Source: a virus (Duplodnaviria; Heunggongvirae; Uroviricota; Caudoviricetes). From it: DNA of 34,937 nucleotides. Positions 812-31,243 of this stretch are shown piece by piece; position 1 is the stretch's first letter; the number at the start of each line of letters is the position of its first letter. The notes under the pieces are model-generated. The model saw only the letters and a program-made list of their open reading frames with translations, was not told the DNA's origin and made no database searches. The stretch lies in the IMG/VR virus record IMGVR_UViG_2571042690_000022, one strand, 5' to 3'. Made by a program: the position numbers and the translations under genes.

Positions 812-812
812 A

Positions 813-1019
813 TCATCTCCTTTTTTTCAGTCTGTCGGCAACAATGTCGGTTGCAGCTGGCAGGGTGACTGGCCAGAACAACATGACGGCGGTCATGTAC
901 AGGATGTAATGCGCGGTGTCGTAGTGCCTGCCATAGCCCAGGGAACGATGAAGTCTTGCGCTGCATGATCCTGCGTACATATACCAGAAAAGAAAACAGA
1001 CAATGGTTTCAGTAGTCAT
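813..1019 (-). CDS. small hydrophobic (membrane) protein, hypothetical
   Basis: 68-aa ORF from internal ATG at 1019 with GGAGG RBS just upstream (rc of 1023-1035); hydrophobic segments; the longer 813-1175 ORF start is unsupported. Confidence 0.4.
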   Translation of the reverse strand: MTTETIVCFLFWYMYAGSCSARLHRSLGYGRHYDTAHYILYMTAVMLFWPVTLPAATDIVADRLKKRR

Positions 1020-1239
1020 TCTGAATACCTCCCCATTCGATATGAATATTACGGGCAGCAATGACAGGGTCGTTATTCCACCATGCACCTGACATGTATT
1101 TTTCAACCTGTTCGCGTCCGGCAATAACACCAATTGTGATCCCCGGCCTGACGTTCTTAAAAAAGGCGCGGGCAAAAAGGTATCTGGCAGATATTCGGCA
1201 GGCTTTTAATTTCCGGCTTTTACCTGATAGCGTAATCAT
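1009..1239 (-). CDS. hypothetical early protein
   Basis: 76-aa ORF; start overlaps the stop of the upstream gene (coupled arrangement); no recognisable motif. Confidence 0.3.
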   Translation of the reverse strand: MITLSGKSRKLKACRISARYLFARAFFKNVRPGITIGVIAGREQVEKYMSGAWWNNDPVIAARNIHIEWGGIQNDY

Positions 1240-1919
1240 CTGGCCTCCAGTTTCTGTTGTTCCTGCCCACTGACCGGGCGGTGCAGTCTGACGTTCTGCC
1301 CTTCACGAAACCCCGCATAGCGCGAGGCGTCGCCATTGCGGCTTCTTCCCGGTTTACGCGCCCTGGTGGTTTGCGTCTGCGGGTATTTATGTTCCAGCCA
1401 CTGCTGCATCAGTTCACGCTCATCATCGGTCAGGGCAAAGGACTGTATTTCACTGATAACGGCCAGCACCCAGCCTTCGGCAAACTGGTCTCCACGGCTG
1501 GTGCGGGTGGCGGTTTTTATTCTTTTGTTCTGTGCACTGATATACTGCTGACGCGCCTTTTTCAGCTGACGGGCCAGCACTTCCCAGGTGTATGCAGCCA
1601 GTGCCGCACGTTCCCGGTTGCCGTAGAACCCCACAGACGGATGCGTGCCGGGGTGAATGATGGAGTTAACACCAAATACCTCGCGGATGATGTTCATCAG
1701 GCCCAGCATGTAGCGCGGTGGACGGAGACTGCCTGTCGGCCAGTAGTGACTGATGGTTTCATCAATATCACTCATAGCAATGTCGGAATGTGTGATGCCG
1801 TGAACATCCATCAGTTTACGGGCTCGGCGCAGTGCCAGAGCGGCCTCGTGCGGGTTGCCGGATGCGGCCAGCGCCAGCAACTTTTTCAGTTTCTCAATGT
1901 GTTTATTCTGGTCTGTCAT
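1236..1919 (-). CDS. DUF2786-like early protein
   Basis: Start chosen at ATG 1919 (MTDQNKHIEKLKKLLALAASGNPHEAALALRRARKLM, DUF2786-like N-terminus); ATGA overlap with stop of upstream gene at 1916; GGAG RBS about 10 nt upstream. Confidence 0.5.
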   Translation of the reverse strand: MTDQNKHIEKLKKLLALAASGNPHEAALALRRARKLMDVHGITHSDIAMSDIDETISHYWPTGSLRPPRYMLGLMNIIREVFGVNSIIHPGTHPSVGFYGNRERAALAAYTWEVLARQLKKARQQYISAQNKRIKTATRTSRGDQFAEGWVLAVISEIQSFALTDDERELMQQWLEHKYPQTQTTRARKPGRSRNGDASRYAGFREGQNVRLHRPVSGQEQQKLEAR

Positions 1920-2131
1920 TGTTCTGTATCTCCGGTATTTTTCTGCCGTTTCCATGCCCGGACAGCGTCGGACAGCTCTTTCAGGCTGTATGCTGCTTTA
2001 AGCTTTTCCCATAACCACTGTGTTGTTATGTGCATCAGCAGGGCAGCCAGGGCTGCCCCCGCACTGAGGCATGTCGCCAGGCCAGTAAGAATCAGTGTCC
2101 ATGCGGTGATTTCCCTGAGTATGTCAGCCAT
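1916..2131 (-). CDS. small single-pass membrane protein, hypothetical
   Basis: 71 aa with one hydrophobic helix (WTLILTGLATCLSAGAALAALLM); tightly packed in the early operon. Confidence 0.4.
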   Translation of the reverse strand: MADILREITAWTLILTGLATCLSAGAALAALLMHITTQWLWEKLKAAYSLKELSDAVRAWKRQKNTGDTEQ

Positions 2132-2145
2132 TGAATGCCTCCCGG

Positions 2146-2442
2146 TTACTCGTTCGTGTAAATCACGCCCAGTCGTGCAGCCAGACGTTCCAGTTTTTTC
2201 TGTTTGTGGAAGTCAATCAGCCGGTCCATCCCCTGAAGGCGCAGTTGCTCTGTCATGATTTCCACGTCTGCCAGCTCTGCCGCGAGGTCACTTTCGCTGC
2301 CCTGTCCGTTCAGGTTGCGGGCGGCACTGGCCGCCAGTTCAGCGGCCTCTTCTGCCAGTTTCAGGGCCTGTGCGTCCGGCCCGAAACGCTGCAGGGCCAG
2401 ACGGTAGAGGGCGGTGCGGGTGAGTTCGGTGTTTCGTGTCAT
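2146..2442 (-). CDS. MazG-like nucleoside triphosphate pyrophosphohydrolase (all-alpha NTP-PPase)
   Basis: 98 aa; KLAEEAAELAASAA followed by LAAELADVEIMTEQL matches the paired EExxE and ExxD metal-binding helices of small MazG/HisE-like proteins (from memory). Confidence 0.55.
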   Translation of the reverse strand: MTRNTELTRTALYRLALQRFGPDAQALKLAEEAAELAASAARNLNGQGSESDLAAELADVEIMTEQLRLQGMDRLIDFHKQKKLERLAARLGVIYTNE

Positions 2443-2451
2443 GCCGCGCCC

Positions 2452-2724
2452 TCAGTGCTTCCGGCTGACGGTGATGTGCAGGCCGCCTTCTGCAGTGGTT
2501 TCCATCCGGTACGGCACCTCATGCTCTGCCGTGTGGGTGAGTGTGTTCATCAGTACCTGCAGGGCAGCCTCCTTTCCGTTGGTCGCCACAATGGCCTGTG
2601 TGGCCATGCTGATTAGCGCCGTCAGGACGTGCTTCACATCGGTGAGGTCGCGGCATTCACACTCGTTGACATAGTGTTCAACAAGGGTTCGGGTGCGCTG
2701 TCGTGCTTCCTGTGGGGTAATCAT
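2452..2724 (-). CDS. hypothetical early protein
   Basis: 90-aa ORF in operon context; no recognisable motif. Confidence 0.4.
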   Translation of the reverse strand: MITPQEARQRTRTLVEHYVNECECRDLTDVKHVLTALISMATQAIVATNGKEAALQVLMNTLTHTAEHEVPYRMETTAEGGLHITVSRKH

Positions 2725-2915
2725 TGCGAGTCCTCCCTGTCAGGGCGGGAGAATTCCATGACGGGCACGTCTGCCGAAAAATGCTGGCTGCAGTACGGGC
2801 AGACCAGGGTGACGCGTACCGCAGGGATGTGGTATTTACCGGACATCACGGCGATGGCGCTGTGAAAACGCAGGGCTGTTATATCCCTCTCGCACTGAAT
2901 ACATTTAAATATCAT
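2721..2915 (-). CDS. small zinc-ribbon protein (CxxC-N30-CxxC)
   Basis: 64 aa with CIQCERD and CPYCSQH pairs; first gene after the gam-downstream intergenic gap. Confidence 0.4.
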   Translation of the reverse strand: MIFKCIQCERDITALRFHSAIAVMSGKYHIPAVRVTLVCPYCSQHFSADVPVMEFSRPDREDSQ

Positions 2916-3012
2916 GATTTAATTCTCCTCTGTTTCCGGCGTGCAGAAGCCCGCGGCGCTGACGTCGGAATAAAAAAGAAAATGTTTTTATTAAATAATT
3001 AACGTGGTGTGT

Positions 3013-3543
3013 TTACTGCACATCCTGCTCAAAAGGAATTATTGAAAAATCCTCAATGTCGCTTTTAATGGAAATACCGGGAATATTTTTCACGGCCTCT
3101 TTTTCATTCAGGATAGCGTCTTTATTTATTTCCTCTTTTACACGAATAAAGCGCTCAAGCCCCAGACGTCTCAGTAATTCAATAACATTATCCGCCCCAC
3201 GGATACTGACTGATGGCGGACGGTTTCGCCACTGCACCTCGCCGGTGGTGAGGTTAGCGAACTTCACCTTCCCGTTGCCGGTCAGTTCATCACGGTGTGC
3301 CTCACACCATGTCTGAATACCGGACTGCAGTTCGGCCATGCGTTTTTTCAGGCTCTCGGTGAGCGGGGCATAACGTGCGGTGATATCGCCAATGGCGTCA
3401 TTCATTTCTGTTTCAGCCCTGACCAGTTCACGTTGTGCGTCACCGAGTAGTCTGATTCCCTCAATGACCTCTTCACGTGTCCCCGGCACCCAGAGTGCTG
3501 CTGCGGCCTTGATACGTTTTGCACCTTTTGTACTTTTTGCCAT
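3013..3543 (-). CDS. gam: Gam host-nuclease inhibitor (Mu Gam-like)
   Basis: 176 aa; stretches such as WRNRPPSVSIRGADNVIELLRRLGLERFIRVKEEINKDAIL and IEDFSIIPFEQ closely resemble Mu Gam as recalled. Confidence 0.85.
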   Translation of the reverse strand: MAKSTKGAKRIKAAAALWVPGTREEVIEGIRLLGDAQRELVRAETEMNDAIGDITARYAPLTESLKKRMAELQSGIQTWCEAHRDELTGNGKVKFANLTTGEVQWRNRPPSVSIRGADNVIELLRRLGLERFIRVKEEINKDAILNEKEAVKNIPGISIKSDIEDFSIIPFEQDVQ

Positions 3544-3570
3544 TTTTTATGATTTCTCCAGTTGTGCTGA

Positions 3571-3840
3571 TTACCACAAAGATTCCGGCCACACGACGCG
3601 ACAGCCGTGCAGTTCGAAAACGCCCTGACGGAAATATCCCCTGTGGTCATGTCCGGTATACAGATAACAGGCCTTTCCCTGCTCAAGCATGCGCATGCAA
3701 TGCGCACTCCGGGAAACGCGGATGACAGGTTTGTTACCCCTGATGGTGATGCTTTGTACATCCGTGTTCGTCGCCTTAAGCGCCATAATGGCTGACTGCA
3801 CTTTGCTGATTTGCTGGTTGATACCTGTGGTGGATTTCAT
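3571..3840 (-). CDS. hypothetical early protein between B and gam
   Basis: 89-aa ORF starting 2 nt after the B stop, with AAGGGG RBS inside the B 3' end; the overlapping 3402-3761 ORF is rejected. Confidence 0.5.
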   Translation of the reverse strand: MKSTTGINQQISKVQSAIMALKATNTDVQSITIRGNKPVIRVSRSAHCMRMLEQGKACYLYTGHDHRGYFRQGVFELHGCRVVWPESLW

Positions 3841-3842
3841 TA

Positions 3843-5009
3843 TTAAACCCCTTTGACAACGTCAGCGTTGACCTGTGGAACCCCGATTTCAGCGGCCAGA
3901 TTCATGGCGGCTATTACCAGGTTACTGACGGCCAGCGGATACAGCAGGCTGACCATATTTTTACGGTGACTTCCCGGATTGCTCAGGCGGGCACGTATGG
4001 CATCCACTGCACCGGCGTCCATAATGTCCGTCAGCTGTTTACCGGCCCGTTGCAGTTTGAACGTCAGAAATTCTTCAAGGTTATTGTCCAGAGGCAGAAG
4101 TTCGACCACCTCACAGCGCTGAACGACTTCACGGACTTCCATATTGCGTTCAGACAGTTTTGTCGCCAGTTCCGGCTGGCCAATCAGCACGATGGACAGC
4201 AGTTTTTTGAAACCGGACTCCAGCTCAAAAAAGCGTTTGAGGTGTTTCAGTGTCGGAATGGGCAGACTGTGGGCCTCCTCAATCACCAGAACGTGGCTGA
4301 ACCCCGCCTGGCTGCTGTCTTTCAGGACGCGATGCAACTGGCGAAAACGGGCGTCCTGACTGCGTCTGATGCTTTCCAGTGGTGCGATGGTACTGATAAT
4401 GGCTTCGGCAATAGCTGCTGCCTTCAGGGTTTTCCCTTTCACATCGTTGTCTTCCATAGCGATGATGTATGGCTCGATAACAATTACCGGCGCATTCTCG
4501 CGGTTGATACGTTCAGTCAGGTCGCGGCGCAGCGTGGATTTACCCGCACCGGACTCACCGATGACGGCCATAAACCCACCATGACGGGCTGTCTGGTACA
4601 GCGCCTCACGCACGTAGCGAATGTCCGGGGTGGTGAACACATCATCAGAACCCTGCATGGCTTCGTCGGCGAACGGGTCACGGAAAAGACCAAACGCTTT
4701 TTTGGTTGCTGGAAATAACACCTGTTTTTTGAGTAACATATTCTCTTCCTCACTGAGGCTCGTTTTATCTGTGGTACCCGCTGTACGGGGCGTGGCCGCG
4801 CCCTGTACAGCATCAAAACTCTTCGTTGTATCAATCCCCTGACTTTCCAGCCAGGACGCAAGACGCCGGCGCACTTCTCCGGGGCTGGTGCGGGGCCACG
4901 CGTTATGATTCACAATCTGGGCCAGCGTGGCCTCAGAAACATCGACAGCTCTCGCCACCACCGCCTGTGGAATACGGGCCTCTTTCAGTTGCTGCTTCAG
5001 TACCAGCAT
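3843..5009 (-). CDS. transposition ATPase (Mu B-like/TniB-like AAA+ protein)
   Basis: Walker A GESGAGKST, Walker B-like HVLVIEEAH, N-terminal HTH-like segment; start set to ATG 5009 (MLVLKQQ) with GAGGAGGG RBS; directly downstream of the transposase. Confidence 0.8.
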   Translation of the reverse strand: MLVLKQQLKEARIPQAVVARAVDVSEATLAQIVNHNAWPRTSPGEVRRRLASWLESQGIDTTKSFDAVQGAATPRTAGTTDKTSLSEEENMLLKKQVLFPATKKAFGLFRDPFADEAMQGSDDVFTTPDIRYVREALYQTARHGGFMAVIGESGAGKSTLRRDLTERINRENAPVIVIEPYIIAMEDNDVKGKTLKAAAIAEAIISTIAPLESIRRSQDARFRQLHRVLKDSSQAGFSHVLVIEEAHSLPIPTLKHLKRFFELESGFKKLLSIVLIGQPELATKLSERNMEVREVVQRCEVVELLPLDNNLEEFLTFKLQRAGKQLTDIMDAGAVDAIRARLSNPGSHRKNMVSLLYPLAVSNLVIAAMNLAAEIGVPQVNADVVKGV

Positions 5010-5019
5010 GTTTCCCTCC

Positions 5020-6789
5020 TCAGTTGCCGTTAACAATGCTGATAACACTGCTGCGGGCCGGTGTGGTCAGCGTGGCCATGACTTCATCCAGTGCGGCTTC
5101 CGGTACGCCGTCCGGGTACTGTGCCGTTAACTGGCGGTAATGTTCCGGCGTCCAGGTAAGGCCGTCGGCGCTGAACTTATCGCGCAGGGCTTTCGCGGCC
5201 TCCACATGAGTCATGGGACGTTGTTCAGTGCGCGGCCCGCGTACGTCAGAGGCCTGACCACGCTTCGGCATATAGGCCGGAAGTGTGGTGTCGTCGATAT
5301 GTTTATACGGGTCAAGCCGCCCGCCGAACGGCAGCGCCTTCGCCTTGCGTGCGGCGGCTGCATCTGCGGCGTTGTCTGTACCGGTAACCAGCGCTTCGGT
5401 TTCTTTTGCCGCCATCTGTGCCGGGGTTTCCGGCAGGGCTTTGTAACTTTCGCCAAATACCGCCGCGCCTTCAGCAAAGCCAAACTCGTTCTTTCTGACC
5501 TCTTCGACCAGGAAGAACGTCTCGTGGCCGTCCTCACCGGTCAGAACCACCTGTGCCACATCGCTGCGCCATGGGTTACGGGTAATCATCAGTTTTTCAC
5601 CAACCAGTACGCCCGGTACCGTTGATACGTCAAATTCAGTGCCCCGGAACGAGACACGAAGTTTTGGCGTGACTTTGCGGAGTTCTGGTGCCGCCACAGC
5701 CAGTTCACGACATACCTCAACGGAAGGCGCTTTTTTCAGCTGCTCAGCAGTAATCTTCAGCCAGATATCCGTGCGGGTTTTACCGTGGCGGCTGTGAACA
5801 GCCGTGGCGTTAAAGTGGCTGCGCCATTTCGCGGCCAGCGCGTTGAGTTCTTCCAGACTGTGAACCGGCCGGAACTTCAGACCCGGCTCCAGCTTGCGTT
5901 CGATAATGTCACGCGCCTTTTCCACCTGTCCGGTGGCGCGGGCGTTATGCGGCTTGTGCGCTATCAGGTCGATGCCCAGTGAGCGGCACATGTTTTTCGT
6001 CATACCCGCGGTGTTTGCCGAGCCGGGGTCGAGATAGAGTATTTTCGGCACGCCGTGCAGCACGTCTGCGCCGCCACGCTCCTGCATGGCGTTGATAAGC
6101 ACAGAACACAGGTTCTCACCTGATTCCGCGCCCGTCACATACTCAACGTAAATCCAGCCGCTGGCATGGTCGGTAATCTCGTAACTCCACACGCGGTCAC
6201 TGGCGATACGGGCAAGGTTAGCGGGCTTGTTCTTGTAGAACTTCGCGCTGTCCATCACCTGCAGCCCTTTATGTCCATTGCTCAGGTAGTAAAGCGTGCA
6301 GAGTGAGGCGTCAATCTGCCAGACATGATTGGGATGCAGACTGGCCACTTCGGTATGTGGTGCAGGGGCATCCAGTTGTTCCGGGTGCAGGCCATAGTTA
6401 CGCAGAGCACGGCTGATGGCATCTTCAGACAACGGGAAAAACTCACTGGTGGTTTCATCTGTTCTGCCTGCGGTGATAAAGCCGTTAGCCCGCAGGGTTT
6501 CCACTGCATCTGCGATGGAATAGAGACGCTTACCGTTCTTGCGGGTGGCCTCACGCAGTGTGGCAGATATCAGCGCGGCTTCGTCGCGGGTCAGGGCGCT
6601 GCGCCCGGCATCGGCGCGTTTTTTGCGTTTATCAGTCACAGATACCTCCTTCAGCCTGCGCAGCAGAGTGGCGCGGGACATGCCAAGTTCAGCACAGGCA
6701 GCGTCGTATATTGCACCGCGTTTACCATGCCCCGCGTCACGTGCCGCGCGGGCTGTTTCAACCAGTTTTTCAGTCAGTGCCGGGGTCAT
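5020..6789 (-). CDS. DDE transposase (Mu A-like)
   Basis: 589 aa; candidate DDE residues in WQIDAS, YLDPGS and GQVEKA; gene order ner-like, A, B as in transposable phages. Confidence 0.9.
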   Translation of the reverse strand: MTPALTEKLVETARAARDAGHGKRGAIYDAACAELGMSRATLLRRLKEVSVTDKRKKRADAGRSALTRDEAALISATLREATRKNGKRLYSIADAVETLRANGFITAGRTDETTSEFFPLSEDAISRALRNYGLHPEQLDAPAPHTEVASLHPNHVWQIDASLCTLYYLSNGHKGLQVMDSAKFYKNKPANLARIASDRVWSYEITDHASGWIYVEYVTGAESGENLCSVLINAMQERGGADVLHGVPKILYLDPGSANTAGMTKNMCRSLGIDLIAHKPHNARATGQVEKARDIIERKLEPGLKFRPVHSLEELNALAAKWRSHFNATAVHSRHGKTRTDIWLKITAEQLKKAPSVEVCRELAVAAPELRKVTPKLRVSFRGTEFDVSTVPGVLVGEKLMITRNPWRSDVAQVVLTGEDGHETFFLVEEVRKNEFGFAEGAAVFGESYKALPETPAQMAAKETEALVTGTDNAADAAAARKAKALPFGGRLDPYKHIDDTTLPAYMPKRGQASDVRGPRTEQRPMTHVEAAKALRDKFSADGLTWTPEHYRQLTAQYPDGVPEAALDEVMATLTTPARSSVISIVNGN

Positions 6790-6804
6790 AGCTTGTCTTC
6801 CCTG

Positions 6805-7122
6805 TTATCCGATTCTGGCGGCAATTTTTCTGGCGAGGTCGCACAGTGTTTCGCCATCGCAGGTTTTCACCACGGTATTTACCGGTTGCGGTGCAACTAC
6901 CGGGCGTAATGCTGACTGATTCTGCAGACGTCTTATCTGCTGCATCAGCATCACCTCCATCGTCAGTACAAACGGGTGCGTCTCCTGTGCGGGTACGCAG
7001 ATTTCACCGGAAGGGGTCACCACGCGGAAACCCTGCACCATCTCCGGCAGCAGATTACACAGTGCGTGCCCCAGTGCCTCCGGGCTGTCCATCAGGGTAT
7101 TTTGTGTGTTATTCGTATTCAT
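6805..7122 (-). CDS. hypothetical early protein
   Basis: 105-aa ORF between the upstream early gene and the transposase; no motif recognised. Confidence 0.4.
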   Translation of the reverse strand: MNTNNTQNTLMDSPEALGHALCNLLPEMVQGFRVVTPSGEICVPAQETHPFVLTMEVMLMQQIRRLQNQSALRPVVAPQPVNTVVKTCDGETLCDLARKIAARIG

Positions 7123-8042
7123 TACTGCATATCCTCCGGTCGGTTGATTTCAGGTTCCGGTTCGGTCAGCCAGGCGGGGGCATCGTTACCCGATGGAGCG
7201 GCCTCAAGGTCAAACGTCTCACGTAATGCATGAACACTGCGTTCAATCTGGCAGACCAGACCGGCCATGAAATCTCTGGGGGTATCGATCATGTTTTTGG
7301 TGCAGTATTCACACAGGGTCTCAAAAACACTGGACAGCCGGACGGCGATAGCCGATTCGGCCTCAACCGCTAATGCCGTCACTTCCGCCCGCAATTTTTT
7401 CAGTTCTTCGTCTGGCGGCGGAGGTTGCAGGCGCGATTTCTTCTCCAGTTTTGTGGCCAGTTCGTTGATTTTTTCGTCCTTTCCGGCAAGCACCTGTTGC
7501 TGAGCTGCGTTGGTTTCGCGCGCTTCACGCAGGGCGGCCTTCAGTTCGCGGCTGGTCATGCGATCAATATCATCAAGCGTTGCACCGGCGACGGTTCCAC
7601 CATCAGCTAATGCGTCGAGTTCTTCGTCATCCAGAACCATCAGTTCATATAACTTGGTTTTTCCCAAAACGCTCAGCGCTGAGCGTTTTGGCTGTTCATC
7701 TCCATTGCCGAGAAATTTCACGCTGGCCTGCATCATGCGACGAGCTACCTGTGGTGCTAATCCGAGGTCGTTTTCCAGAATATTTGTGAAATCACCATGC
7801 GGTTCATTTTCTTTTAAGATGATCAGCCGCTTACCCGCTTCCAACATAGATTCAGCACTCTGCGCCATATAAAAACGTGCTTCGTGAACGATGCGTTCAC
7901 GTTCATAAGGCAGTCCATCACCAAACTGCTGCATGATCTCCATGCGATGCTGTGTCATGGCATTCAGGCTGACGTTGAGATCATCCGACAGCGGTACATC
8001 GGCGTTCAGTTCAGTGTTAATCGGTGATTTGGTACGTCCCAT
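7122..8042 (-). CDS. hypothetical early protein (possibly DUF3102-like)
   Basis: 306-aa ORF with AAGGAG RBS about 8 nt upstream of ATG 8042; predicted coiled-coil middle region; family assignment is a recollection only. Confidence 0.45.
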   Translation of the reverse strand: MGRTKSPINTELNADVPLSDDLNVSLNAMTQHRMEIMQQFGDGLPYERERIVHEARFYMAQSAESMLEAGKRLIILKENEPHGDFTNILENDLGLAPQVARRMMQASVKFLGNGDEQPKRSALSVLGKTKLYELMVLDDEELDALADGGTVAGATLDDIDRMTSRELKAALREARETNAAQQQVLAGKDEKINELATKLEKKSRLQPPPPDEELKKLRAEVTALAVEAESAIAVRLSSVFETLCEYCTKNMIDTPRDFMAGLVCQIERSVHALRETFDLEAAPSGNDAPAWLTEPEPEINRPEDMQ

Positions 8043-8052
8043 TGATTACTCC

Positions 8053-8361
8053 TTACAAACGACTACCTGAAATGACACGTTGGTTAATTTCGTTAATACG
8101 ATCCTGTGCACGTGCCATCTCGTTACTGTGGGCCATGGCGATCTGCAGTAACTGGATGCCCGGTGCAAAACGTCCGTTCTCCAGTTTCAGAGCCAGCCCT
8201 TCTTCAATGAGGGTGTTGAGTGCCCGGTTGATGTTTGCCGGTGACTCGTGCAGTGCTGTCGCCAGTTCACCGTTAGAAATACCGTTCAGGGCATGACCGC
8301 GCAGCGCTTTGAGTACCCGGAGGATGCGACTGCCGGAGCTTGAAACATTCGTCTTACTCAT
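8053..8361 (-). CDS. winged-helix DNA-binding protein (IclR/MarR-like HTH)
   Basis: SRILRVLKAL...GISNGELATAL...NINRALNTLIEEGL resembles a wHTH N-terminal domain; start uncertain (8361 or 8367). Confidence 0.45.
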   Translation of the reverse strand: MSKTNVSSSGSRILRVLKALRGHALNGISNGELATALHESPANINRALNTLIEEGLALKLENGRFAPGIQLLQIAMAHSNEMARAQDRINEINQRVISGSRL

Positions 8362-8413
8362 CTGCATACCTCTTTTGCGATATGTGATAACCTTTTACAA
8401 AGACTCAAAATAT

Positions 8414-8602
8414 TTAGGCCGCCTGAGCTGTTGATTTCAGTCCCAACTTCACGGCGATTTCATGGGATTTACCGTAACGGGCTTTGGTCTGCCCGTTGAG
8501 AACGCGGTATACCTCATTGCGGTTGTAGCCGTTTTCTTCTGCCCAGCGGGTGAAAGTGATCCCGCGCTGGCGGAAGAGAGCTTTGACTTGTTCTGCAGTC
8601 AT
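8414..8602 (-). CDS. Ner-like DNA-binding protein (Cro-like early regulator)
   Basis: 62 aa; pattern resembles the Ner/Nlp family; first gene of the leftward operon, divergent from the repressor; AAGGAG RBS 7 nt upstream of ATG 8602. Confidence 0.6.
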   Translation of the reverse strand: MTAEQVKALFRQRGITFTRWAEENGYNRNEVYRVLNGQTKARYGKSHEIAVKLGLKSTAQAA

Positions 8603-8695: not shown

Positions 8696-9052
8696 ATGAG
8701 CAAAGATATAGGAGAGCGCGTTATTTCTGTGAGGAAGAAAGCAGGGTTGAACCAGAGAGAATTTGCAGCTCGTTTAGGTATTTCTAATGGTGGTATCAGT
8801 CAGATTGAAAATGGAAAGGCGATGCCTGGAGGGGAGTTTCTGTTAAAGATGCATCAAGAGTTTAATGTTGATGTAAATTGGTTGCTCACTGGAATGAGCA
8901 CAGATGGTATGACTAGAAACCAGAATCAAATTTCCCCAGAAAAACAAAAACTAATAGATACTTTTGACGACATGACACCAGACCAACAACGCTCATTTCT
9001 TGAGATTGGGCGATTCTATACTCAGCCAAAACCAGGAAAAATCGCAGGCTGA
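8696..9052 (+). CDS. XRE-family HTH repressor (lysogeny repressor candidate)
   Basis: 118 aa; N-terminal HTH (LNQREFAARLGISNGGISQIENGK); divergent from the early operon; gene is markedly AT-rich relative to its neighbours; weak or no SD. Confidence 0.75.
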   Translation: MSKDIGERVISVRKKAGLNQREFAARLGISNGGISQIENGKAMPGGEFLLKMHQEFNVDVNWLLTGMSTDGMTRNQNQISPEKQKLIDTFDDMTPDQQRSFLEIGRFYTQPKPGKIAG

Positions 9053-9137
9053 TACTGACCCGGACACAAAGGACAGGTGGTTGATCTGGATGCTTTCAGA
9101 AAACATCGCCAGTGACATAGTGGAAGTTGTTTGGTTT

Positions 9138-9170
9138 ACCGGAAAGCATTGTGCTTTCCGGTTTTGTTTC
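9138..9170 (+). terminator. rho-independent terminator-like hairpin
   Basis: Stem ACCGGAAAGCA (9138-9148), loop TTG, stem TGCTTTCCGGT (9152-9162), then TTTGTTTC; lies between the convergent repressor and dam 3' ends. Confidence 0.5.
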
Positions 9171-9933
9171 AGAAGTTGCAGATTAGCAGTTCACGGCGCG
9201 GCGTGGGTTTACCCGCCAGACTGTAGTTGATATTCACTGTCTGTATGTTCAGTCCAGTGAACACCTCGCGCATCTGCGGGATGTCGTTCACCGAAATTAT
9301 CATTTTTCCTCTGATGCACCGGGCCAGCTCTGCCAGCCGCGAGTAGTTCCCTTCAGGAAAATCCACACCATAGCCTTCCGTACCCAGGTACGGTGGGTCG
9401 CAGTAGAACAGCGTGTGCGGACGATCATAACGCTCAATGCACTGTTGCCAGTCCATGTGTTCTATGACTGTTCTGGAAAGCCGCAGGTGTGCCGCTGACA
9501 GTTCTTCTTCAATACGTAGCAGGTTGAAGCGTGGCGGGGATGTGGTGGAGGTACCGAAGCTGTGCTCTGCCACCTTGCCGCCAAACGCCTGCTTCTGAAG
9601 GTAGTAGAACCGTGCCGCACGCTGGATATCCGTCAGTGTTTCTTCCGGGGTGATCTGCAGCCATTTGTAGATCTGACGGCTGACCAGCGCCCATTTGAAC
9701 TGGCGGACAAATTCTTCCAGGTGATGCTTTACCACCCGGTACAGATTCACCAGTTCACCGTTGATATCATTGATGACTTCGATCTTGCCGGGTGTCTTAA
9801 GAAAATAGAGCGCTGCTGCCCCACAAAACGGCTCCACATAACATTCATGCGCCGGAAACAGCGGCAGAATGTGTTTTGCAAGGCGGCGTTTGCCACCAAT
9901 CCACGGCACGATGGGTAATGTCTGCATTTTCAT
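9169..9933 (-). CDS. dam: Dam-family DNA N6-adenine methyltransferase (orphan, no cognate endonuclease seen)
   Basis: WIGGK, YVEPFCGAAALYF, INDINGELVNLY and FYCDPPY match E. coli Dam motifs as recalled; start set at ATG 9933 (MKMQTLPIV) rather than the ORF-track start at 10023. Confidence 0.85.
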   Translation of the reverse strand: MKMQTLPIVPWIGGKRRLAKHILPLFPAHECYVEPFCGAAALYFLKTPGKIEVINDINGELVNLYRVVKHHLEEFVRQFKWALVSRQIYKWLQITPEETLTDIQRAARFYYLQKQAFGGKVAEHSFGTSTTSPPRFNLLRIEEELSAAHLRLSRTVIEHMDWQQCIERYDRPHTLFYCDPPYLGTEGYGVDFPEGNYSRLAELARCIRGKMIISVNDIPQMREVFTGLNIQTVNINYSLAGKPTPRRELLICNF

Positions 9934-10038
9934 AATCTGCAAGCCTTTTACAATTATTAAAAAATATGGCAGTCTGGTCAGGTCTCGCGAGACTGACTGA
10001 ACCTTGGTCGGCTCACAGCGCATTCCTGTGGGGCGATG

Positions 10039-10068
10039 ACCAGCCCGGCTTTCGGGTGCCGGGCTGGT
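10039..10068. other. strong hairpin (11-bp GC-rich stem, 8-nt loop) in the dam-upstream intergenic region
   Basis: ACCAGCCCGGC (10039-10049) pairs perfectly with GCCGGGCTGGT (10058-10068); followed on the plus strand by CGTTCTTTC. Confidence 0.4.
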
Positions 10069-10123
10069 CGTTCTTTCATGATGCGGCAGGGATGGCGGGA
10101 TTTCTGTTAATGTGGTTTAGGGA

Positions 10124-10339
10124 TTATCCGGGGCGATTTTCTGACCTTATCCGGTCCAGGGCATAAGTAATACCTTCTGCAAAAACAGAAGTATCAAACT
10201 GCTTTTGTATTCCCTGAAAATGAAAAGCGGCACGACAGACACTCAGTTCTCCGCGGTATAACCGGATAATATCTTCCAGAACATTGTTCACTGCTTCAGC
10301 ACGGCGCTGATGTTCTGTTAACGTTAATCGGGGATTCAT
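10124..10339 (-). CDS. hypothetical small protein (71 aa)
   Basis: ORF with strong AAGGAG RBS 7 nt upstream of ATG 10339; lies in an AT-rich patch; start codon overlaps head-to-head with the 10338 plus-strand ORF. Confidence 0.35.
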   Translation of the reverse strand: MNPRLTLTEHQRRAEAVNNVLEDIIRLYRGELSVCRAAFHFQGIQKQFDTSVFAEGITYALDRIRSENRPG

Positions 10340-10742
10340 GATGCACTCCTTAAATGATGATTTTTATGTACTCACCGGCAAAATATTCTGCCGATTACTG
10401 AACACGCATCCGGCACCTCAGGTTTTGATTTATTCTGGTTTTTTCGATATCCCGGACCAGGTTGATCACGACCAGAAAAAGTGCCGGTGTTTTATTGATA
10501 CGCTGATATGGCTTCGGGATAACAGCTATATTCGTTACTCTCAGTTGCTGGCTGTGGGAGCGGCTGATGTCGTCCTCACGGAAAAAACGCTCTGTCTGCT
10601 CAATGCCATGCCGACCTTTCTGCAGCCCCGGCCCGTACCATTTAAAGAGTCACTTCTGGATGCAGTAAAAACCGGTGAAAATGCAGTCATCGCTGAATGC
10701 GTATCCCGGATTATGCGTTACGTGTTTAATGAACGTAAGTGA
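10338..10742 (+). CDS. hypothetical protein (134 aa)
   Basis: Long ORF in AT-rich DNA where chance ORFs are rarer; GGGGA 4-8 nt upstream of tandem ATGs; fills the only gap lacking a minus-strand ORF; reality uncertain. Confidence 0.35.
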   Translation: MMHSLNDDFYVLTGKIFCRLLNTHPAPQVLIYSGFFDIPDQVDHDQKKCRCFIDTLIWLRDNSYIRYSQLLAVGAADVVLTEKTLCLLNAMPTFLQPRPVPFKESLLDAVKTGENAVIAECVSRIMRYVFNERK

Positions 10743-11446
10743 GGTTTATCCGCTGTCTGCATAATCCCGATAGCCAGTGCGAGGGGAAGTAATTCCGGGG
10801 AAACTCTTTCAAACAGCGATGCCCATTCTCCTCTCGCCATCACTCTGTCCAGCCCGCCCTCCAGTTGCATTTCAGCAATCTTCCTGATTTCCCGGAACAA
10901 CGCCGCTTTGATCTCTTCATGCTCAGCTTTATTTTCCGGTGTCAGAAGGTATTCGTCGAAGAACCGGGGAGGCTGGTTAATCGGGATGTGTTCCTGTTTG
11001 CCGTACTTCGGGGACGAACAACATTCTGTTGACTGACCAGTGAGTTTACGTAACTCCTTCATGAGCAGCTCCTGATCGTAAACTGTCATCAGTGCCGCAA
11101 TGGTGGCATGCAGTGCATCGGGCAGTATCCAGGGTTGCCGGCCCGTGGGGCATATAACATCCAGCAGCTCATTCGTCCGACAGATACGCTCCTCGCCGTA
11201 TGACAACAGGCCCTGTCCCGTGTATTCCTCCAGCCTGATCACTGTGCCAGCCCGTGGTTTCTGCCATGTGCTCAGATCATCCCCACTCATACGGCGCTCA
11301 CCGTCCACGTCTGCGGCGTCGACAATGACGCTGTTTCCGAATTCCTGTTTCACCACTTCCTCTATTCGCGCCAGTACGTAACTTTTACCGCTGCCCACAG
11401 GACCGGACACGGTGACAGTGATGACCGGATTCAGTGTCTGCGTCAT
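10718..11446 (-). CDS. P-loop NTPase/kinase-like protein of unknown function
   Basis: 242 aa; Walker A GPVGSGKS at residues 16-23, then hydrophobic strand plus acidic segment SVIVDAADVDGERR; GAGGAG RBS upstream of ATG 11446; divergent from the late lysis operon. Confidence 0.55.
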   Translation of the reverse strand: MTQTLNPVITVTVSGPVGSGKSYVLARIEEVVKQEFGNSVIVDAADVDGERRMSGDDLSTWQKPRAGTVIRLEEYTGQGLLSYGEERICRTNELLDVICPTGRQPWILPDALHATIAALMTVYDQELLMKELRKLTGQSTECCSSPKYGKQEHIPINQPPRFFDEYLLTPENKAEHEEIKAALFREIRKIAEMQLEGGLDRVMARGEWASLFERVSPELLPLALAIGIMQTADKPHLRSLNT

Positions 11447-11508
11447 ATCGTATTCTCCTCTGTGAATAATTCATCGTTTATCCTGCACATCCCGTATCCC
11501 CGGCTCTC

Positions 11509-11526
11509 TTAACGCGCTTTAAAATC
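11509..11526 (+). promoter_or_regulatory. late-promoter motif copy 1 (TTAACGCGCTTTAAAATC) upstream of lysis genes
   Basis: One of four copies of TTAA-N6-TTAAWATC, each in a late intergenic gap 32-56 nt before a start codon. Confidence 0.45.
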
Positions 11527-11576
11527 CTTCGCGCCCTGTATTTGTGATGCTGTCTCCACCAGATAAGGAGACACAC

Positions 11577-11927
11577 ATGAAAAACCTGAAAAAATTCATT
11601 CCCCCTGTTAAAAAACCTCGCCTCAGCGGCTGGCTGCTGACCTCAGTGCTGTTGCTGGGCACCATCGCTCTGGTCTCACCACAGCAGCTGCCTGTTGTGA
11701 TCTACAAGCTGGCACTCATCACGCTGGCAGCAGTGCTGGGTTACTGGCTTGACCGTTCGCTCTTCCCCAAAGCCCGTCCCGGTCAGTACCTGAAACATGA
11801 CGACAGGCTGATGGCTGAAGGGCGTTTCCCGGTACAGACCGGCCTTCACCTGGTGTTTTCTGCTGCGTTAATCCGCCGTGCACTGATTGTTGCAGCGGTC
11901 TGCCTGGCTGTTGCGATGGGGCTTTAA
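11577..11927 (+). CDS. holin-like membrane protein
   Basis: 116 aa from ATG 11577 with AAGGAG RBS 7 nt upstream; 2-3 predicted TM helices; immediately precedes the endolysin. Confidence 0.5.
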   Translation: MKNLKKFIPPVKKPRLSGWLLTSVLLLGTIALVSPQQLPVVIYKLALITLAAVLGYWLDRSLFPKARPGQYLKHDDRLMAEGRFPVQTGLHLVFSAALIRRALIVAAVCLAVAMGL

Positions 11928-18922: not shown

Positions 18923-18975
18923 AACCGCCTCCGGTTCACCGCATTGCTTTCCCTGTCCTTCTCCCCTGATGTTTT

Positions 18976-18993
18976 CTAAAGCAGATTAAAATC
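18976..18993 (+). promoter_or_regulatory. late-promoter motif copy 2 (CTAAAGCAGATTAAAATC) upstream of gene I
   Basis: Same 18-bp architecture as copy 1; followed at identical spacing (23 nt) by the shared octamer CTGTCTCC (19017-19024; copy 1 has it at 11550-11557). Confidence 0.45.
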
Positions 18994-19048
18994 GCCGGGC
19001 CTGCATTTCTCACAAACTGTCTCCGACAACATAACGCGGGACAGCAAA

Positions 19049-20164
19049 ATGTCAGCCATTCACATTTTTAAAGCCGGTACTCATACCGATATGCACGGCA
19101 AAAAACTGCCGTTCACGCCAGACGATCTTGCCGCCTGCGTGAAAGCCTATGACCCGTCCGTCCATGAAGCACCACTCGTGATTGGTCATCCCAGAACGGA
19201 AGACCCGGCGTGGGGCTGGGTGAAAGCCCTGTCGCTCAGCGGCGTCGATCTGATGGCAGAGCCTGCCCAGCTGGACCCGCAGTTTGCTGAGATGGTCACC
19301 GACGGACGATTCAAAAAAGTGTCCGCCTCTTTCTACCTCCCGGATTCACCGTCCAATCCGAAGCCCGGCGTGCTCTACCTTCGCCATGTGGGCTTTCTCG
19401 GGGCACAGCCACCTTCCGTCAAGGGGCTGAAACAGGTGTCCTTCAGTGAGCAGGAAGAAGGTGTGGTGGAGTTCGCCGACTGGCAGGCCATCACGAATGC
19501 CTCCCTGTGGGGAAAGCTGCGCGATTTTCTGATCGCCCGCTTCAGTCTGGACGAGGCAGAAAAAGTCCTGCCGGAATGGCAGCTCAACAGTCTGCGCGAA
19601 GAGGCGTACCGCGACACACTGTCGCAGGATGCAGCAGGTGCACAATTCAGTGAGACAGGCCCGGGGCCGTCTTCCGCAAGTAACGAGGAATCATCGATGA
19701 CAAAAGAAGAGATTGAAGCCCTTCAGGAGGAGAACCGCCGCCTGAAGCAGCAGGCTGCTGATCGCGATGCGCGTGATGCACAGGTCAGACAGGAGCAACT
19801 GCATAAGGACAATGTGGCCTTTGCAGAAAAACTGGTCGCAGAGGGCCGTCTGGCTCCCCGCGCCTCCTCCGTGGTGGTTGCCCTGCTGGATGCCGTCGCC
19901 GGTGGCGACAAGCCGGTGGAGTTTGCTGAGGGGGAAAGCCGCACACCGCTGGCCACCGCCTTTCGTTCATTGCTCTCCGACGGGGAGCCGGTGATGAATT
20001 TCGCCGAACAGGCCACAAAAGAGCGTGTCGGCGACACGGTGAAGGTGGATGTGGCAGAGTTTGCGGAAGCCGATCCTGAGCGTCTGGCCCTGCATCAGAA
20101 AGCAGTGGCCCTGTCCAAAAAAGAAGGCATCAGCTATGAGGCTGCTGTCGCACGCTGCCTGTAA
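19049..20164 (+). CDS. head protease/scaffold protein (Mu I-like)
   Basis: 371 aa; N-terminal region resembles Mu I; C-terminal helical charged region typical of scaffold; position before the major capsid. Confidence 0.7.
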   Translation: MSAIHIFKAGTHTDMHGKKLPFTPDDLAACVKAYDPSVHEAPLVIGHPRTEDPAWGWVKALSLSGVDLMAEPAQLDPQFAEMVTDGRFKKVSASFYLPDSPSNPKPGVLYLRHVGFLGAQPPSVKGLKQVSFSEQEEGVVEFADWQAITNASLWGKLRDFLIARFSLDEAEKVLPEWQLNSLREEAYRDTLSQDAAGAQFSETGPGPSSASNEESSMTKEEIEALQEENRRLKQQAADRDARDAQVRQEQLHKDNVAFAEKLVAEGRLAPRASSVVVALLDAVAGGDKPVEFAEGESRTPLATAFRSLLSDGEPVMNFAEQATKERVGDTVKVDVAEFAEADPERLALHQKAVALSKKEGISYEAAVARCL

Positions 20165-24871: not shown

Positions 24872-24896
24872 AGGGGCTCCGGCCCCTTCTTCTTAA
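24872..24896 (+). terminator. terminator-like hairpin after the sheath/tube block
   Basis: AGGGGC (24872-24877), loop TCCG, GCCCCT (24882-24887), then TCTTCTTAATCTCCTTT. Confidence 0.45.
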
Positions 24897-31238: not shown

Positions 31239-31243
31239 GCTTT

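What the first reader, a model, noticed from the sequence alone, without database searches (positions are those of the whole stretch)
9053..11576. Cargo segment between the immunity switch and the late operon: orphan Dam, P-loop kinase-like protein and two small ORFs
Between the repressor and the first late promoter lie genes with no role in the Mu-type core set: a Dam-family methyltransferase (9169-9933), a 242-aa P-loop protein (10718-11446) and two small ORFs in a patch of about 42-45 percent GC (manual count) against about 52-58 percent elsewhere. They lie on the minus strand diverging from the late operon, apart from the plus-strand 134-aa ORF. This is the most likely place in the window for an accessory system (exclusion, defence or anti-defence), but the sequence alone does not show which.
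Basis: partly seen in the sequence, partly recalled or inferred. Interest (0 to 1): 0.7.

Follow-up and report, generated by a model that had tools for sequence, protein, structure and literature searches.

The report
Variable accessory slot of a Mu-like prophage
The stretch between the repressor and the lysis genes of this common E. coli ST131 prophage is a swap-prone slot holding four real genes (a DNA methylase, a small protein paired with a winged-helix protein, and a patchwork protein with an ATP-binding-type motif); they are separate modules, not one recognisable defence system, and three of them have unknown functions.

Summary
All four ORFs sit at the stated coordinates and strands, and the two small ORFs form a lower-GC patch (44-46% against 55% for the window).

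The window is a BcepMu-like transposable prophage. It is 100% identical to phage PhiKM and to the prophage beside ycaL in ST131 strains JJ1887 and EC958.

The repressor-to-holin interval is variable among relatives: BcepMu, Klebsiella KP12, Serratia and other E. coli prophages carry different gene sets there. "Cargo slot" is therefore supported.

The four genes occur independently of one another, so they are modules, not one system.
- **Dam** is very probably the published orphan methylase M.EcoMIV. It is under strong purifying selection, is poorly transcribed in lysogens, and its target site is unknown.
- **The 134-aa protein** is a winged-helix protein. It lies start-to-start with a small ORF, as its relatives do in the GpA-GpQ defence hotspot of P2-like phages.
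- **The 242-aa protein** is a mosaic. A roughly 75-residue N-terminal domain carries a Walker-A motif; it is not a recognisable kinase.

PADLOC finds no defence system apart from the methylase. My best reading is a moron-type slot with a self-modification methylase, a mobile regulator cassette and an unknown modular protein. Interest is moderate.

The parts
8696..9052 (+). Immunity repressor (118 aa, HTH_3/cI-like). It marks the left border of the slot and has the lowest GC in the area (40.9%).
   Evidence: Pfam HTH_3 E 4.6e-15 and Phage_CI_repr; PHROG transcriptional repressor families; GC.
9138..9162 (+). Terminator-like hairpin (11-bp stem plus TTTTGTTT) after the repressor gene, just before the Dam stop codon.
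   Evidence: Terminator scan and inverted repeat I19.
9169..9933 (-). Orphan D12-class N6-adenine DNA methyltransferase (254 aa), very probably the published M.EcoMIV of ST131 prophage Phi2. The DPPY and SAM-binding motifs are present.
   Evidence: PF02086 E 6e-29 and TIGR00571 116.6 bits against a cut-off of 114.85; PADLOC MTase_II 371 bits; alignment to DpnM and EcoDam structures; dN/dS 0.04-0.11; PMC4659465; the same prophage beside ycaL in EC958.
9934..10123 (.). Intergenic region between Dam and the 71-aa gene. It holds overlapping promoter-like sites on both strands (9927-9954 +, 9981-9953 -) and a perfect 12-bp GC hairpin at 10038-10069. Serratia has an equivalent hairpin followed by a T-run on the + strand.
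   Evidence: (I15). The promoter-like matches are no more numerous than in shuffled sequence.
10124..10339 (-). 71-aa soluble protein (phrog_4490), function unknown and fast-evolving. Its start codon overlaps that of the 134-aa gene, and its AAGGAG ribosome-binding site lies inside the first codons of that gene.
   Evidence: PHROG 177 bits over 71/71; Serratia homologue with pairwise E 3e-11; dN/dS 0.5-0.6; sequence.
10338..10742 (+). 134-aa winged-helix protein (phrog_2266). It is oriented antisense within the leftward gene row, and its 3' end overlaps the 242-aa gene by 25 nt. It is dispensable: internally deleted or truncated in some relatives.
10718..11446 (-). 242-aa mosaic protein (phrog_3787). 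Residues 1-75 form a small domain with GPxGxGKS, E50, W61 and E74. The middle and C-terminal modules also occur in shorter or separate proteins elsewhere. The gene sits head-to-head with the holin gene.
   Evidence: the AF2 model is unusable (pLDDT 45).
11447..11576 (.). Divergent control region. A late-promoter-like box, TTTAAAATC at 11518-11526 with a downstream GCTGTC, is shared with three other late intergenic regions. No such box faces leftward.
11577..11927 (+). Holin (Holin_2-3), first late gene and right border of the slot.
   Evidence: Pfam E 1.1e-41; PHROG holin.

Best explanation
Positions 9053-11576 are the variable central accessory slot of a BcepMu-like transposable prophage (ST131 Phi2 / PhiKM). 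The slot lies between the immunity repressor and the lysis/late operon. It holds three independently assorting modules, not one system.

1. **Orphan methyltransferase.** A Dam-family (D12) N6-adenine methyltransferase, very probably the published M.EcoMIV. It belongs to a lineage conserved across temperate proteobacterial phages. I infer that it is made mainly outside lysogeny and methylates replicating phage DNA, giving protection from restriction or marking phage DNA. Its target site need not be GATC.
2. **Head-to-head cassette.** A winged-helix protein (134 aa) and a small protein (71 aa) with overlapping start codons. The winged-helix gene also sits, in the same start-to-start geometry with an unrelated small ORF, in the GpA-GpQ defence hotspot of P2-like phages. 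I infer that the winged-helix protein is a local regulator. Its gene is embedded antisense in the leftward gene row (242 aa, then 71 aa, then Dam) and would damp that row by repression and/or convergent transcription.
3. **Modular protein.** A 242-aa protein whose conserved roughly 75-residue N-terminal domain carries a Walker-A-type loop, joined to exchangeable C-terminal modules. Its role is unknown; I suspect a nucleotide- or phosphate-binding adaptor.

**Shown:** gene reality, folds and motifs, variability of the slot, independence of the modules, and selection patterns. **Inferred:** timing of expression, the methylase's purpose, the regulatory role of the winged-helix protein, and any phenotype.
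For: **Identity of the element.** The segment is 100% identical to PhiKM and to ST131 chromosomes, and the organisation is BcepMu-type.

**Variable slot.** BcepMu carries gp18-20. KP12 carries a 177-aa gene, Dam and a 188-aa gene. E. coli A24, C9 and 8178 carry other sets. Serratia carries Dam, a 73-aa gene, a 139-aa gene and an 89-aa gene. Of 635 E. coli genomes with a match, only 459 have at least 80% of the segment.

**Independence of the modules.**
- Dam occurs without the 71/134 pair, and in KP12 also without the N-terminal domain of the 242-aa protein (KP12; L033, L035, L036).
- The Walker-A-domain gene occurs without Dam (L027-L032, L034).
- The winged-helix gene occurs in P2-like phages with neither.

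**Dam.** Catalytic motifs are present. dN/dS is 0.04-0.11, and the E. coli and Serratia proteins are 84% identical against 71% for the holin. Homologues at 58-66% identity occur in temperate phages of Burkholderia, Vibrio, Pseudomonas, Shewanella and Acinetobacter. Published RT-PCR shows low transcription in the EC958 lysogen, and no motif was assigned (PMC4659465).

**Geometry.** Overlapping starts and ribosome-binding sites are seen in the sequence and recur in five other phages or prophages.

**Defence databases.** PADLOC finds nothing but methyltransferase models.
Against: - No expression data exist for three of the four genes.
- No sigma-70-like promoter was found for the 242-aa gene, and the promoter-like matches are no more numerous than in shuffled sequence.
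- The late-promoter box is absent on the leftward strand. Nothing therefore shows when the leftward genes are transcribed, or that they form one transcript.
- The hairpin at 10038-10069 may separate the 71-aa gene from Dam.
- The winged-helix protein has a neutral pI of 6.8, which is atypical for a DNA binder. It could bind protein or RNA instead.
- Strong conservation of Dam, and the fixed position of the 242-aa gene next to the holin in all 22 IMG/VR E. coli-type loci that span the junction, could mean phage-intrinsic roles rather than 'accessory' ones.
Confidence: 0.6

Rival explanations
1. The winged-helix/71-aa pair, alone or with the 242-aa protein, is an uncharacterised anti-phage (superinfection exclusion or abortive infection) or anti-defence module. 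It would move between defence hotspots of different temperate phage families.
For: Winged-helix homologues lie in the GpA-GpQ hotspot of P2-like phages. Their neighbours there include a retron type VI RT+HTH, a Fic protein (SoFic/PDC-S04-like), a YobI-ATPase and an AAA_15 protein. In phage Midge and in Kluyvera L060 the hotspot holds little apart from the winged-helix gene and a few small ORFs of unknown function. The literature reports that empty hotspots are rare and that many unknown hotspot genes are defensive (PMC13586616). The patch has low GC. The 71-aa protein evolves fast, with dN/dS 0.5-0.6.
Against: There are no PADLOC, Pfam or NCBIfam hits and no effector-type domain. The winged-helix gene is deleted or truncated in 3 of 12 prophages that carry the 71-aa gene. 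The small partners in BcepMu-type and P2-type phages are not homologous (hhalign probability 0.1), which argues against a fixed two-protein machine. In P2-like phages the gene keeps a fixed place while cargo changes on either side, as a flanking or regulatory gene would.
Confidence: 0.17
2. The leftward genes (242 aa, 71 aa, Dam) are a phage-intrinsic operon with a role in the lytic cycle. It would be a functional analogue of Mu com-mom (late DNA modification), or a regulator of transposition or packaging through methylation. On this reading they are not accessory cargo.
For: The gene order and strand are the same in E. coli and Serratia relatives. In L036 the Walker-A-domain gene is followed directly by Dam. 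Dam is under very strong purifying selection and is more conserved than the holin. Transcription in lysogens is low (PMC4659465). The related Dam in the Shewanella Mu-like phage MuM16-1 lies at the right genome end, where Mu carries mom.
Against: BcepMu, E. coli 8178-type, C9-type (L027-L032) and A24-type prophages lack Dam. BcepMu, KP12 and 8178 lack the Walker-A domain. The shared late-promoter box is absent on the leftward strand. A strong hairpin lies between the 71-aa gene and Dam.
Confidence: 0.15
3. All four genes form one new multi-gene defence system: a methyltransferase for self-marking, a P-loop ATPase motor or sensor, and a regulator (a minimal BREX- or R-M-like system).
For: A methyltransferase and a Walker-A protein sit together in an accessory slot. 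There are weak PADLOC Walker-A hits (Csx3-AAA, mad8, SngB, HerA; E 0.003-0.05), and a PD-Lambda-5_B methyltransferase hit.
Against: The components assort independently. There is no nuclease or other effector ORF. The Walker-A domain is only about 75 residues and matches ATPases only over the loop and helix. The PADLOC hits are motif-level only.
Confidence: 0.04

Closest known systems
M.EcoMIV (EC958_1101) and the lineage of phage orphan Dam-like D12 methyltransferases (homologues in phiE125, KS9, VP882 and MuM16-1)
   Same: The enzyme class is the same (PF02086, with the DPPY and SAM motifs). The window's prophage is present beside ycaL in EC958. The published description fits: a prophage Phi2 orphan methyltransferase, 100% identical in JJ1886.
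   Different: It is only distantly related to E. coli Dam: 67 bits against an equivalog cut-off of 441. In the alignment the EcoDam positions I recall as the GATC contacts, K9 and R124, are P and A here. GATC specificity is therefore unproven, and the paper assigned no motif.
Central region of Burkholderia phage BcepMu (gp17 repressor, gp18-gp20, gp21 holin)
   Same: The genome architecture is the same, with divergent early and late arms. A cI/Cro-like repressor is followed by non-core genes, then holin, SLT, Rz and Rz1.
   Different: None of gp18-20 is related to the four genes here. All BcepMu slot genes are on the late strand. BcepMu has no methyltransferase and no Walker-A domain.
GpA-GpQ (old/tin) defence hotspot of P2-like phages
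   Same: Both are swap-prone slots in a temperate phage. They share a homologous winged-helix gene with a start-to-start small ORF (PMC9122126 and PMC13586616).
   Different: The phage family and the position in the genome differ. No recognised defence system is present in this window.
Mu com-mom late DNA-modification operon
   Same: Both are DNA-modification genes in a transposable phage that are not needed for lysogeny and are apparently silent in the lysogen.
   Different: The enzyme is unrelated: Mom is an acetamido-adenine modifier, whereas this is a SAM-dependent methyltransferase. The location and strand differ, and there is no late-promoter box upstream.
P-loop NTPases and nucleotide kinases
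   Same: The GPxGSGKS Walker-A loop is followed by a helix, in a strand-loop-helix-strand arrangement.
   Different: The conserved unit is only about 75 residues and occurs alone as 70-90-aa proteins. No conserved Walker B aspartate is present, and no family-level hit was found. The guanylate kinase match has E 0.5.

Membership tests
Dam family / D12-class N6-adenine DNA methyltransferase (PF02086, TIGR00571) | Profile match above the curated threshold | tested here: met
   PF02086 102 bits (cut-off 22). TIGR00571 116.6 bits (cut-off 114.85), which only just passes.
Dam family / D12-class N6-adenine DNA methyltransferase (PF02086, TIGR00571) | Catalytic DPPY motif and N-terminal SAM-binding motif | tested here: met
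   The 'FYCDPPYLG' and 'EPFCGAAALYF' stretches align with the corresponding motifs of DpnM and EcoDam.
Dam family / D12-class N6-adenine DNA methyltransferase (PF02086, TIGR00571) | GATC target specificity (true Dam) | tested here: inconclusive
   The E. coli Dam equivalog model gives 67 bits against a cut-off of 441. In the alignment EcoDam K9 and R124 are P and A here; that these are the GATC contacts is my recollection. The paper reports no motif for M.EcoMIV. Methylome data are needed.
Dam family / D12-class N6-adenine DNA methyltransferase (PF02086, TIGR00571) | Orphan status (no cognate restriction endonuclease adjacent) | tested here: met
   The neighbouring genes are the repressor, the 71-aa gene, the winged-helix gene and the 242-aa gene. 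No nuclease domain appears in Pfam, PADLOC or NCBIfam.
P-loop NTPase / nucleotide kinase | Walker A motif GxxxxGK[ST] | tested here: met
   GPVGSGKS at residues 15-22. G20 and K21 are invariant across 22-37 homologues.
P-loop NTPase / nucleotide kinase | Full alpha/beta NTPase core with a conserved Walker B, and a family-level profile match | tested here: not met
   The best Pfam hit, AAA_30, scores 16.5 bits against a cut-off of 27 and covers only residues 11-49. PDB guanylate kinase has E 0.5. The conserved unit is about 75 residues, and D43 is not conserved.
P-loop NTPase / nucleotide kinase | NTPase fold in a confident structure model | tested here: inconclusive
   The AF2 model has mean pLDDT 45.5, with only 12 near-identical sequences in the alignment.
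Known anti-phage defence systems (PADLOC-DB 2.0) | Significant match of the constituent proteins to a system's models | tested here: not met
   The 71-aa and 134-aa proteins have no hit. The 242-aa protein has only Walker-A-level hits (E at least 0.003). Dam matches generic MTase_II and orphan methyltransferase models.
Winged-helix (MarR/PadR/Zalpha-like) nucleic-acid-binding proteins | Winged helix-turn-helix fold | tested here: met
Winged-helix (MarR/PadR/Zalpha-like) nucleic-acid-binding proteins | Sequence membership of a named family (for example DUF2513, MarR) | tested here: not met
   No Pfam or NCBIfam hit at E up to 0.1 or 1. Only the source's own label on the 53%-identical Serratia homologue P0012 says DUF2513.
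Winged-helix (MarR/PadR/Zalpha-like) nucleic-acid-binding proteins | Sequence-specific DNA binding or repression | not testable with these tools
   Requires EMSA or reporter assays. The pI of 6.8 neither supports nor excludes it.
Type II toxin-antitoxin module (considered for the 71/134 pair) | Co-directional bicistronic operon with a recognisable toxin or antitoxin domain | tested here: not met
   The genes are divergent with overlapping start codons. No toxin or antitoxin family hit was found.
Phage 186 Tum antirepressor (considered because of its size and its position in the same GpA-to-right-end / GpA-GpQ region of 186-type P2-like phages) | Sequence or profile similarity to Tum | tested here: not met
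   hhalign probability 0.2 and BLASTP E 5.7.
Mor/C-dependent late operon (mom-like) | The late-promoter box shared by the late units lies upstream, on the coding strand | tested here: not met
   TTTAAWATC boxes lie at 11518, 18985, 24902 and 31253 on the + strand only. None is on the minus strand within 9053-11576.
BcepMu-like transposable phage (Bcepmuvirus-type organisation) | DDE (rve) transposase, ExeA-like ATPase, Mor, GemA and Gam on one arm; holin, SLT and Mu-type head and tail genes on the other | tested here: met
   RefSeq and GenBank annotation of identical DNA, and comparison with BcepMu.

The most novel reading that the evidence does not exclude
The winged-helix gene and its start-to-start small ORF are a previously unrecognised mobile cassette that travels between the accessory or defence hotspots of unrelated temperate phages (BcepMu-like and P2-like). 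It would act either as a compact anti-phage or exclusion module, or as a portable switch that gates neighbouring cargo through overlapping divergent translation starts and antisense transcription. Separately, the roughly 75-residue Walker-A domain of the 242-aa protein would be a new minimal P-loop domain family used as a common head for exchangeable C-terminal modules.
Probability: 0.2. Interest if true: 0.7.

Novelty: new member of a known kind. Interest (0 to 1): 0.42.

Why it matters
This prophage segment is present in about 8-12% of complete E. coli genomes (459-635 of 5426), including the pandemic ST131 clade C.

- Knowing that the repressor-to-holin interval is the swap slot of enterobacterial BcepMu-like phages tells future defence and anti-defence screens where to look in this phage family.
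- The methylase M.EcoMIV belongs to a very conserved lineage of temperate-phage enzymes whose target site is still unknown. Finding that site would explain part of the ST131 methylome and how the phage escapes restriction.
- The winged-helix cassette links this slot to the well-studied P2 defence hotspot.
- The short Walker-A domain is a cheap, testable candidate for a new small nucleotide-binding domain.

None of this is established as a new mechanism yet.

Tried and rejected
- **Structure of the 242-aa protein.** The AF2 model had pLDDT 45 and was unusable, so no fold search was run.
- **Profile search of the N-terminal domain against the PDB.** Only Walker-A loops of ABC transporters, kinases and designed P-loop proteins matched.
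- **Pfam on 37 homologues.** Only Walker-A-level AAA and ABC hits below threshold.
- **Exhaustive HMMER search.** It gave 60 cluster representatives, all uncharacterised. Two long repeat proteins (P0116, P0151) were spurious.
- **Genome-contig scan for the domain.** It was swamped by Walker-A pattern matches and returned only 2 loci.
- **Distant stand-alone homologues (L037-L041).** They lie in unrelated temperate-phage contexts that gave no clue.
- **BFVD fold search for the winged-helix protein.** Nothing significant. The afdb50 library was unavailable.
- **Tum antirepressor idea.** Rejected.
- **Homology between the 71-aa protein and the 63-aa P2-type partner.** Rejected.
- **LexA boxes.** None in the relevant intergenic regions.
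- **Rfam.** No hit in the window.
- **Direct repeats flanking the 71-aa gene** (10102-10125 and 10313-10336, 75% identity). I saw no equivalent repeat on reading the Serratia sequence, so this is probably chance.
- **The 29-nt repeat 8382-8410 / 9935-9963.** The shared core is of a length expected by chance.
- **The idea that the winged-helix gene is a simple insertion.** Rejected. L020 and L025 keep its first 16-17 and last 9 or so codons, so they are deletion derivatives.
- **Literature on specificity of the 64-66% identical phiE125 and VP882 methylases.** Not retrievable here. I recall reports that both are active adenine methylases, but this is unverified and I did not use it.


Full report
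**What the window is.** The segment and its flanks are 100% identical to Escherichia phage PhiKM (PQ738613, classed in Bcepmuvirus) and to a prophage inserted beside ycaL in E. coli ST131 chromosomes such as JJ1887 and EC958.

The organisation matches Burkholderia phage BcepMu.
- A leftward early arm occupies window 1-8602. It carries Mor, GemA, Gam, an ExeA-like ATPase, a DDE transposase, a DUF3102 protein, an IclR-type HTH protein and a Ner-like protein.
- A cI-like repressor lies on the other strand at 8696-9052.
- A rightward late arm starts with the holin (11577), followed by SLT, Rz and Mu-type head and tail genes.

The finding covers the interval between the repressor and the holin.

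**Checking the observation.**
- All four ORFs are at the stated coordinates and strands.
- GC content is 44.4% for the 71-aa gene and 46.2% for the 134-aa gene. Dam and the 242-aa gene are at 53%, and the whole window is at 55% (the profile is). The 'low-GC patch' is therefore real but limited to the two small ORFs. The repressor gene is lower still, at 40.9%.
- The ORFs are genuine genes. Dam hits PF02086. The other three match PHROG families over their full length. Serratia prophages with strongly diverged DNA keep homologous proteins in the same order.

**Is the interval variable?** Yes.

| Phage or prophage | Content between repressor and holin |
|---|---|
| BcepMu | gp18-gp20, unrelated, all on the late strand |
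| Klebsiella KP12 | 177-aa gene, Dam, 188-aa gene |
| E. coli A24 and C9 | Larger repressor plus 328-aa gene, a 182- or 193-aa gene, and a short Walker-A-domain gene; no Dam |
| E. coli 8178 | DUF2441 protein; no Dam and no Walker-A gene |
| Serratia | Dam, 73-aa gene, 139-aa gene, and an 89-aa protein that matches only the C-terminal module of the 242-aa protein |

In 24 IMG/VR loci of this phage group:
- 15 have Dam, 7 lack it, and 2 are cut off before that position.
- 9 have an intact 134-aa gene, 1 has a truncated copy and 2 have an internal deletion.
- Of the 12 loci that carry neither an intact nor a damaged 134-aa gene, 10 clearly lack it and 2 are cut off before that position.

Among 5426 complete E. 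coli genomes, 635 match part of the segment and 459 match at least 80% of it. The 'cargo slot' description stands.

**Dam.**
- The protein has the DPPY catalytic motif and the SAM-binding motif. It aligns along its length with DpnM and E. coli Dam structures. No nuclease gene is nearby, so it is an orphan enzyme.
- It fits the published M.EcoMIV (EC958_1101). That enzyme is described as a D12-class orphan methyltransferase on prophage Phi2, 100% identical in JJ1886 (PMC4659465). EC958 carries this same prophage beside ycaL. I could not verify the old locus tag directly.
- The paper found its mRNA to be well below that of dam in mid-log lysogens. It could assign no methylation motif.
- In the alignment, the E. 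coli Dam positions I recall as the GATC contacts (K9, R124) are not conserved here. The Dam equivalog model scores only 67 bits against a cut-off of 441. GATC specificity is therefore unproven.
- The gene is under strong purifying selection, with dN/dS of 0.04-0.11. It is more conserved between E. coli and Serratia prophages (84%) than the holin (71%).
- Homologues at 58-66% identity occur in temperate phages of Burkholderia, Vibrio, Pseudomonas, Shewanella (a Mu-like phage) and Acinetobacter.
- This pattern fits a phage-serving enzyme that modifies phage DNA better than it fits a host-serving moron. Timing and purpose remain inferences.

**The 134-aa and 71-aa pair.**
- The family is spread across Enterobacterales. 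It occurs in two settings: this slot of BcepMu-like prophages in E. coli and Serratia, and the GpA-GpQ interval of P2-like phages. The GpA-GpQ interval is the main described defence hotspot of P2-like phages (PMC9122126, PMC13586616).
- In P2-like phages its neighbours include a retron type VI RT+HTH, a Fic protein, a YobI-ATPase and an AAA_15 protein.
- Wherever an upstream small ORF is annotated or called (the three P2-like phage genomes, the Salmonella loci L045-L048, Klebsiella L056 and the Serratia loci L042-L044), the winged-helix gene starts head-to-head with it. The start codons overlap by 2 nt or nearly abut. Gene calling omitted such an ORF in the other loci examined. In this window each gene's Shine-Dalgarno sequence lies inside the other's first codons.
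- The small partners differ between the two settings. The 71-aa protein is homologous to the Serratia 73-aa protein (pairwise E 3e-11). It shows no detectable relation to the 63-aa P2-type partner.
- The winged-helix gene is dispensable. L020 and L025 carry an internal deletion that keeps only its ends, and L019 has a truncated copy.
- The 71-aa gene evolves fast, with dN/dS of 0.5-0.6.
- The winged-helix gene lies antisense between the 242-aa gene and the 71-aa gene. It is convergent with the 242-aa gene, with a 25-nt overlap. Its transcription would therefore oppose any leftward read-through. My best guess is a local regulator cassette. A defence or anti-defence role is not excluded.

**The 242-aa protein.**
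- Only residues 11-49 match anything known, and only as a Walker-A loop followed by a helix.
- An exhaustive HMMER search found 60 cluster representatives. The conserved part is the first 75 or so residues, a strand-GPxGxGKS-helix-strand unit with conserved E50, W61 and E74. It occurs alone as 70-90-aa proteins, or is fused to unrelated C-terminal regions of up to about 290 residues.
- The putative Walker B aspartate is not conserved. A profile search of the PDB again found only P-loop motifs, including designed minimal P-loop proteins.
- Close relatives exist that lack residues 52-124, and others that lack the C-terminal half. The Serratia gene in this position encodes only the C-terminal module.
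- The structure model was poor, at pLDDT 45. 'Kinase-like' is therefore not supported. It is a mosaic protein with an uncharacterised mini P-loop-type head.
- In the 22 IMG/VR loci that span the junction, the gene lies head-to-head with the holin gene. BcepMu, KP12 and the 8178-type prophage lack it altogether. Its dN/dS of 0.2-0.3 indicates a functional protein.

**Regulatory signals.**
- Four + strand intergenic regions ahead of late gene blocks share a TTAA-N6-7-TTAAWATC element plus a downstream AnACTGyC. The boxes lie at 11518, 18985, 24902 and 31253. They probably mark the activator-dependent late promoters.
- No such box faces leftward inside the segment. The leftward genes are therefore not late genes by this criterion, and the mom-like reading is weakened.
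- A terminator follows the repressor gene at 9138-9162.
- A perfect 12-bp hairpin at 10038-10069 lies between the 71-aa gene and Dam. Serratia has an equivalent hairpin followed by a T-run on the + strand.
- The sigma-70-like matches are no more numerous than in shuffled sequence.

**Are the four genes one system?** No. Each module occurs without the others. There is no effector-type domain. PADLOC recognises only the methyltransferase.

**Verdict.**
This is the variable accessory slot of a BcepMu-like prophage, but its contents are a mosaic of independent modules:
  - a known though functionally unresolved orphan methylase;
  - a mobile winged-helix cassette shared with the P2 hotspot;
  - a modular protein with a short Walker-A domain.
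- As a kind of feature it is ordinary, a phage moron or hotspot region. The specific families are uncharacterised and cheap to test, so interest is moderate.

Noticed in passing
window 11500-11579, 18967-19051, 24884-24965, 31235-31295 (+ strand): Four intergenic regions ahead of late gene blocks share TTAA-N6-7-TTAAWATC and a downstream AnACTGyC element. They are probably the Mor/C-type activator-dependent late promoters of this phage. With up to 1 mismatch the box occurs 15 times in the window, against 6.6 expected.
   Followed up: partly
window 9927-10080; L042 5636-5785: The Dam to 71-aa intergenic region is recognisably conserved between E. coli and Serratia prophages. It ends in a strong GC hairpin that in Serratia is followed by a T-run on the + strand. 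It could be a + strand terminator, or a small transcript of about 115 nt starting at a promoter-like site at 9927-9954. Rfam has no match.
   Followed up: partly
window 10320-10360: The start codons of the 71-aa (-) and 134-aa (+) genes overlap at 10338-10339, and each gene's Shine-Dalgarno sequence lies within the other's first codons. There is therefore no intergenic space for promoters. The same geometry recurs in P2-like phages with a non-homologous small ORF.
   Followed up: yes
L006 4556-5792; L007 1068-2108; L057 1-3555; L058 852-3544: In P2-like prophages the winged-helix homologue sits next to different defence-type cargo: a retron type VI RT plus HTH, a Fic protein (SoFic/PDC-S04-like), a YobI-ATPase, and an AAA_15 protein with a 368-aa partner.
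   Followed up: partly
L021 6588-7052: One E. coli relative carries a second, divergent winged-helix paralogue (154 aa, 27% identity) between the 71-aa gene and Dam.
   Followed up: no
L020 and L025 5745-5800, against window 10391-10717: Two prophages with different repressor types share the same internal deletion of about 330 bp in the winged-helix gene, with short microhomology (CGCA.AAT) at the junction.
   Followed up: partly
whole window: GATC is under-represented: 89 sites against about 133 expected from base composition. This agrees with the published under-representation of GATC in EC958 prophages.
   Followed up: no
window 8993-9118 and 10338-10742, against PQ738613 annotation: The PhiKM GenBank record leaves the 134-aa gene unannotated. 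It does annotate a 41-aa ORF overlapping the repressor 3' end, which is probably spurious. RefSeq annotates the 134-aa gene.
   Followed up: no
L008-L010, locus 2700-4300; BcepMu gp17-gp18: Other immunity types of this phage group pair a larger repressor (153 aa) with a co-directional 328-aa protein of unknown function that has no Pfam or PADLOC hit. The ST131 type has the 118-aa repressor alone, followed by a terminator.
   Followed up: no
window 8382-8410 and 9935-9963: A 29-nt imperfect repeat (72% identity, core CCTTTTACAA) lies upstream of both the IclR-type HTH gene and Dam. The shared core is short enough to be chance.
   Followed up: no
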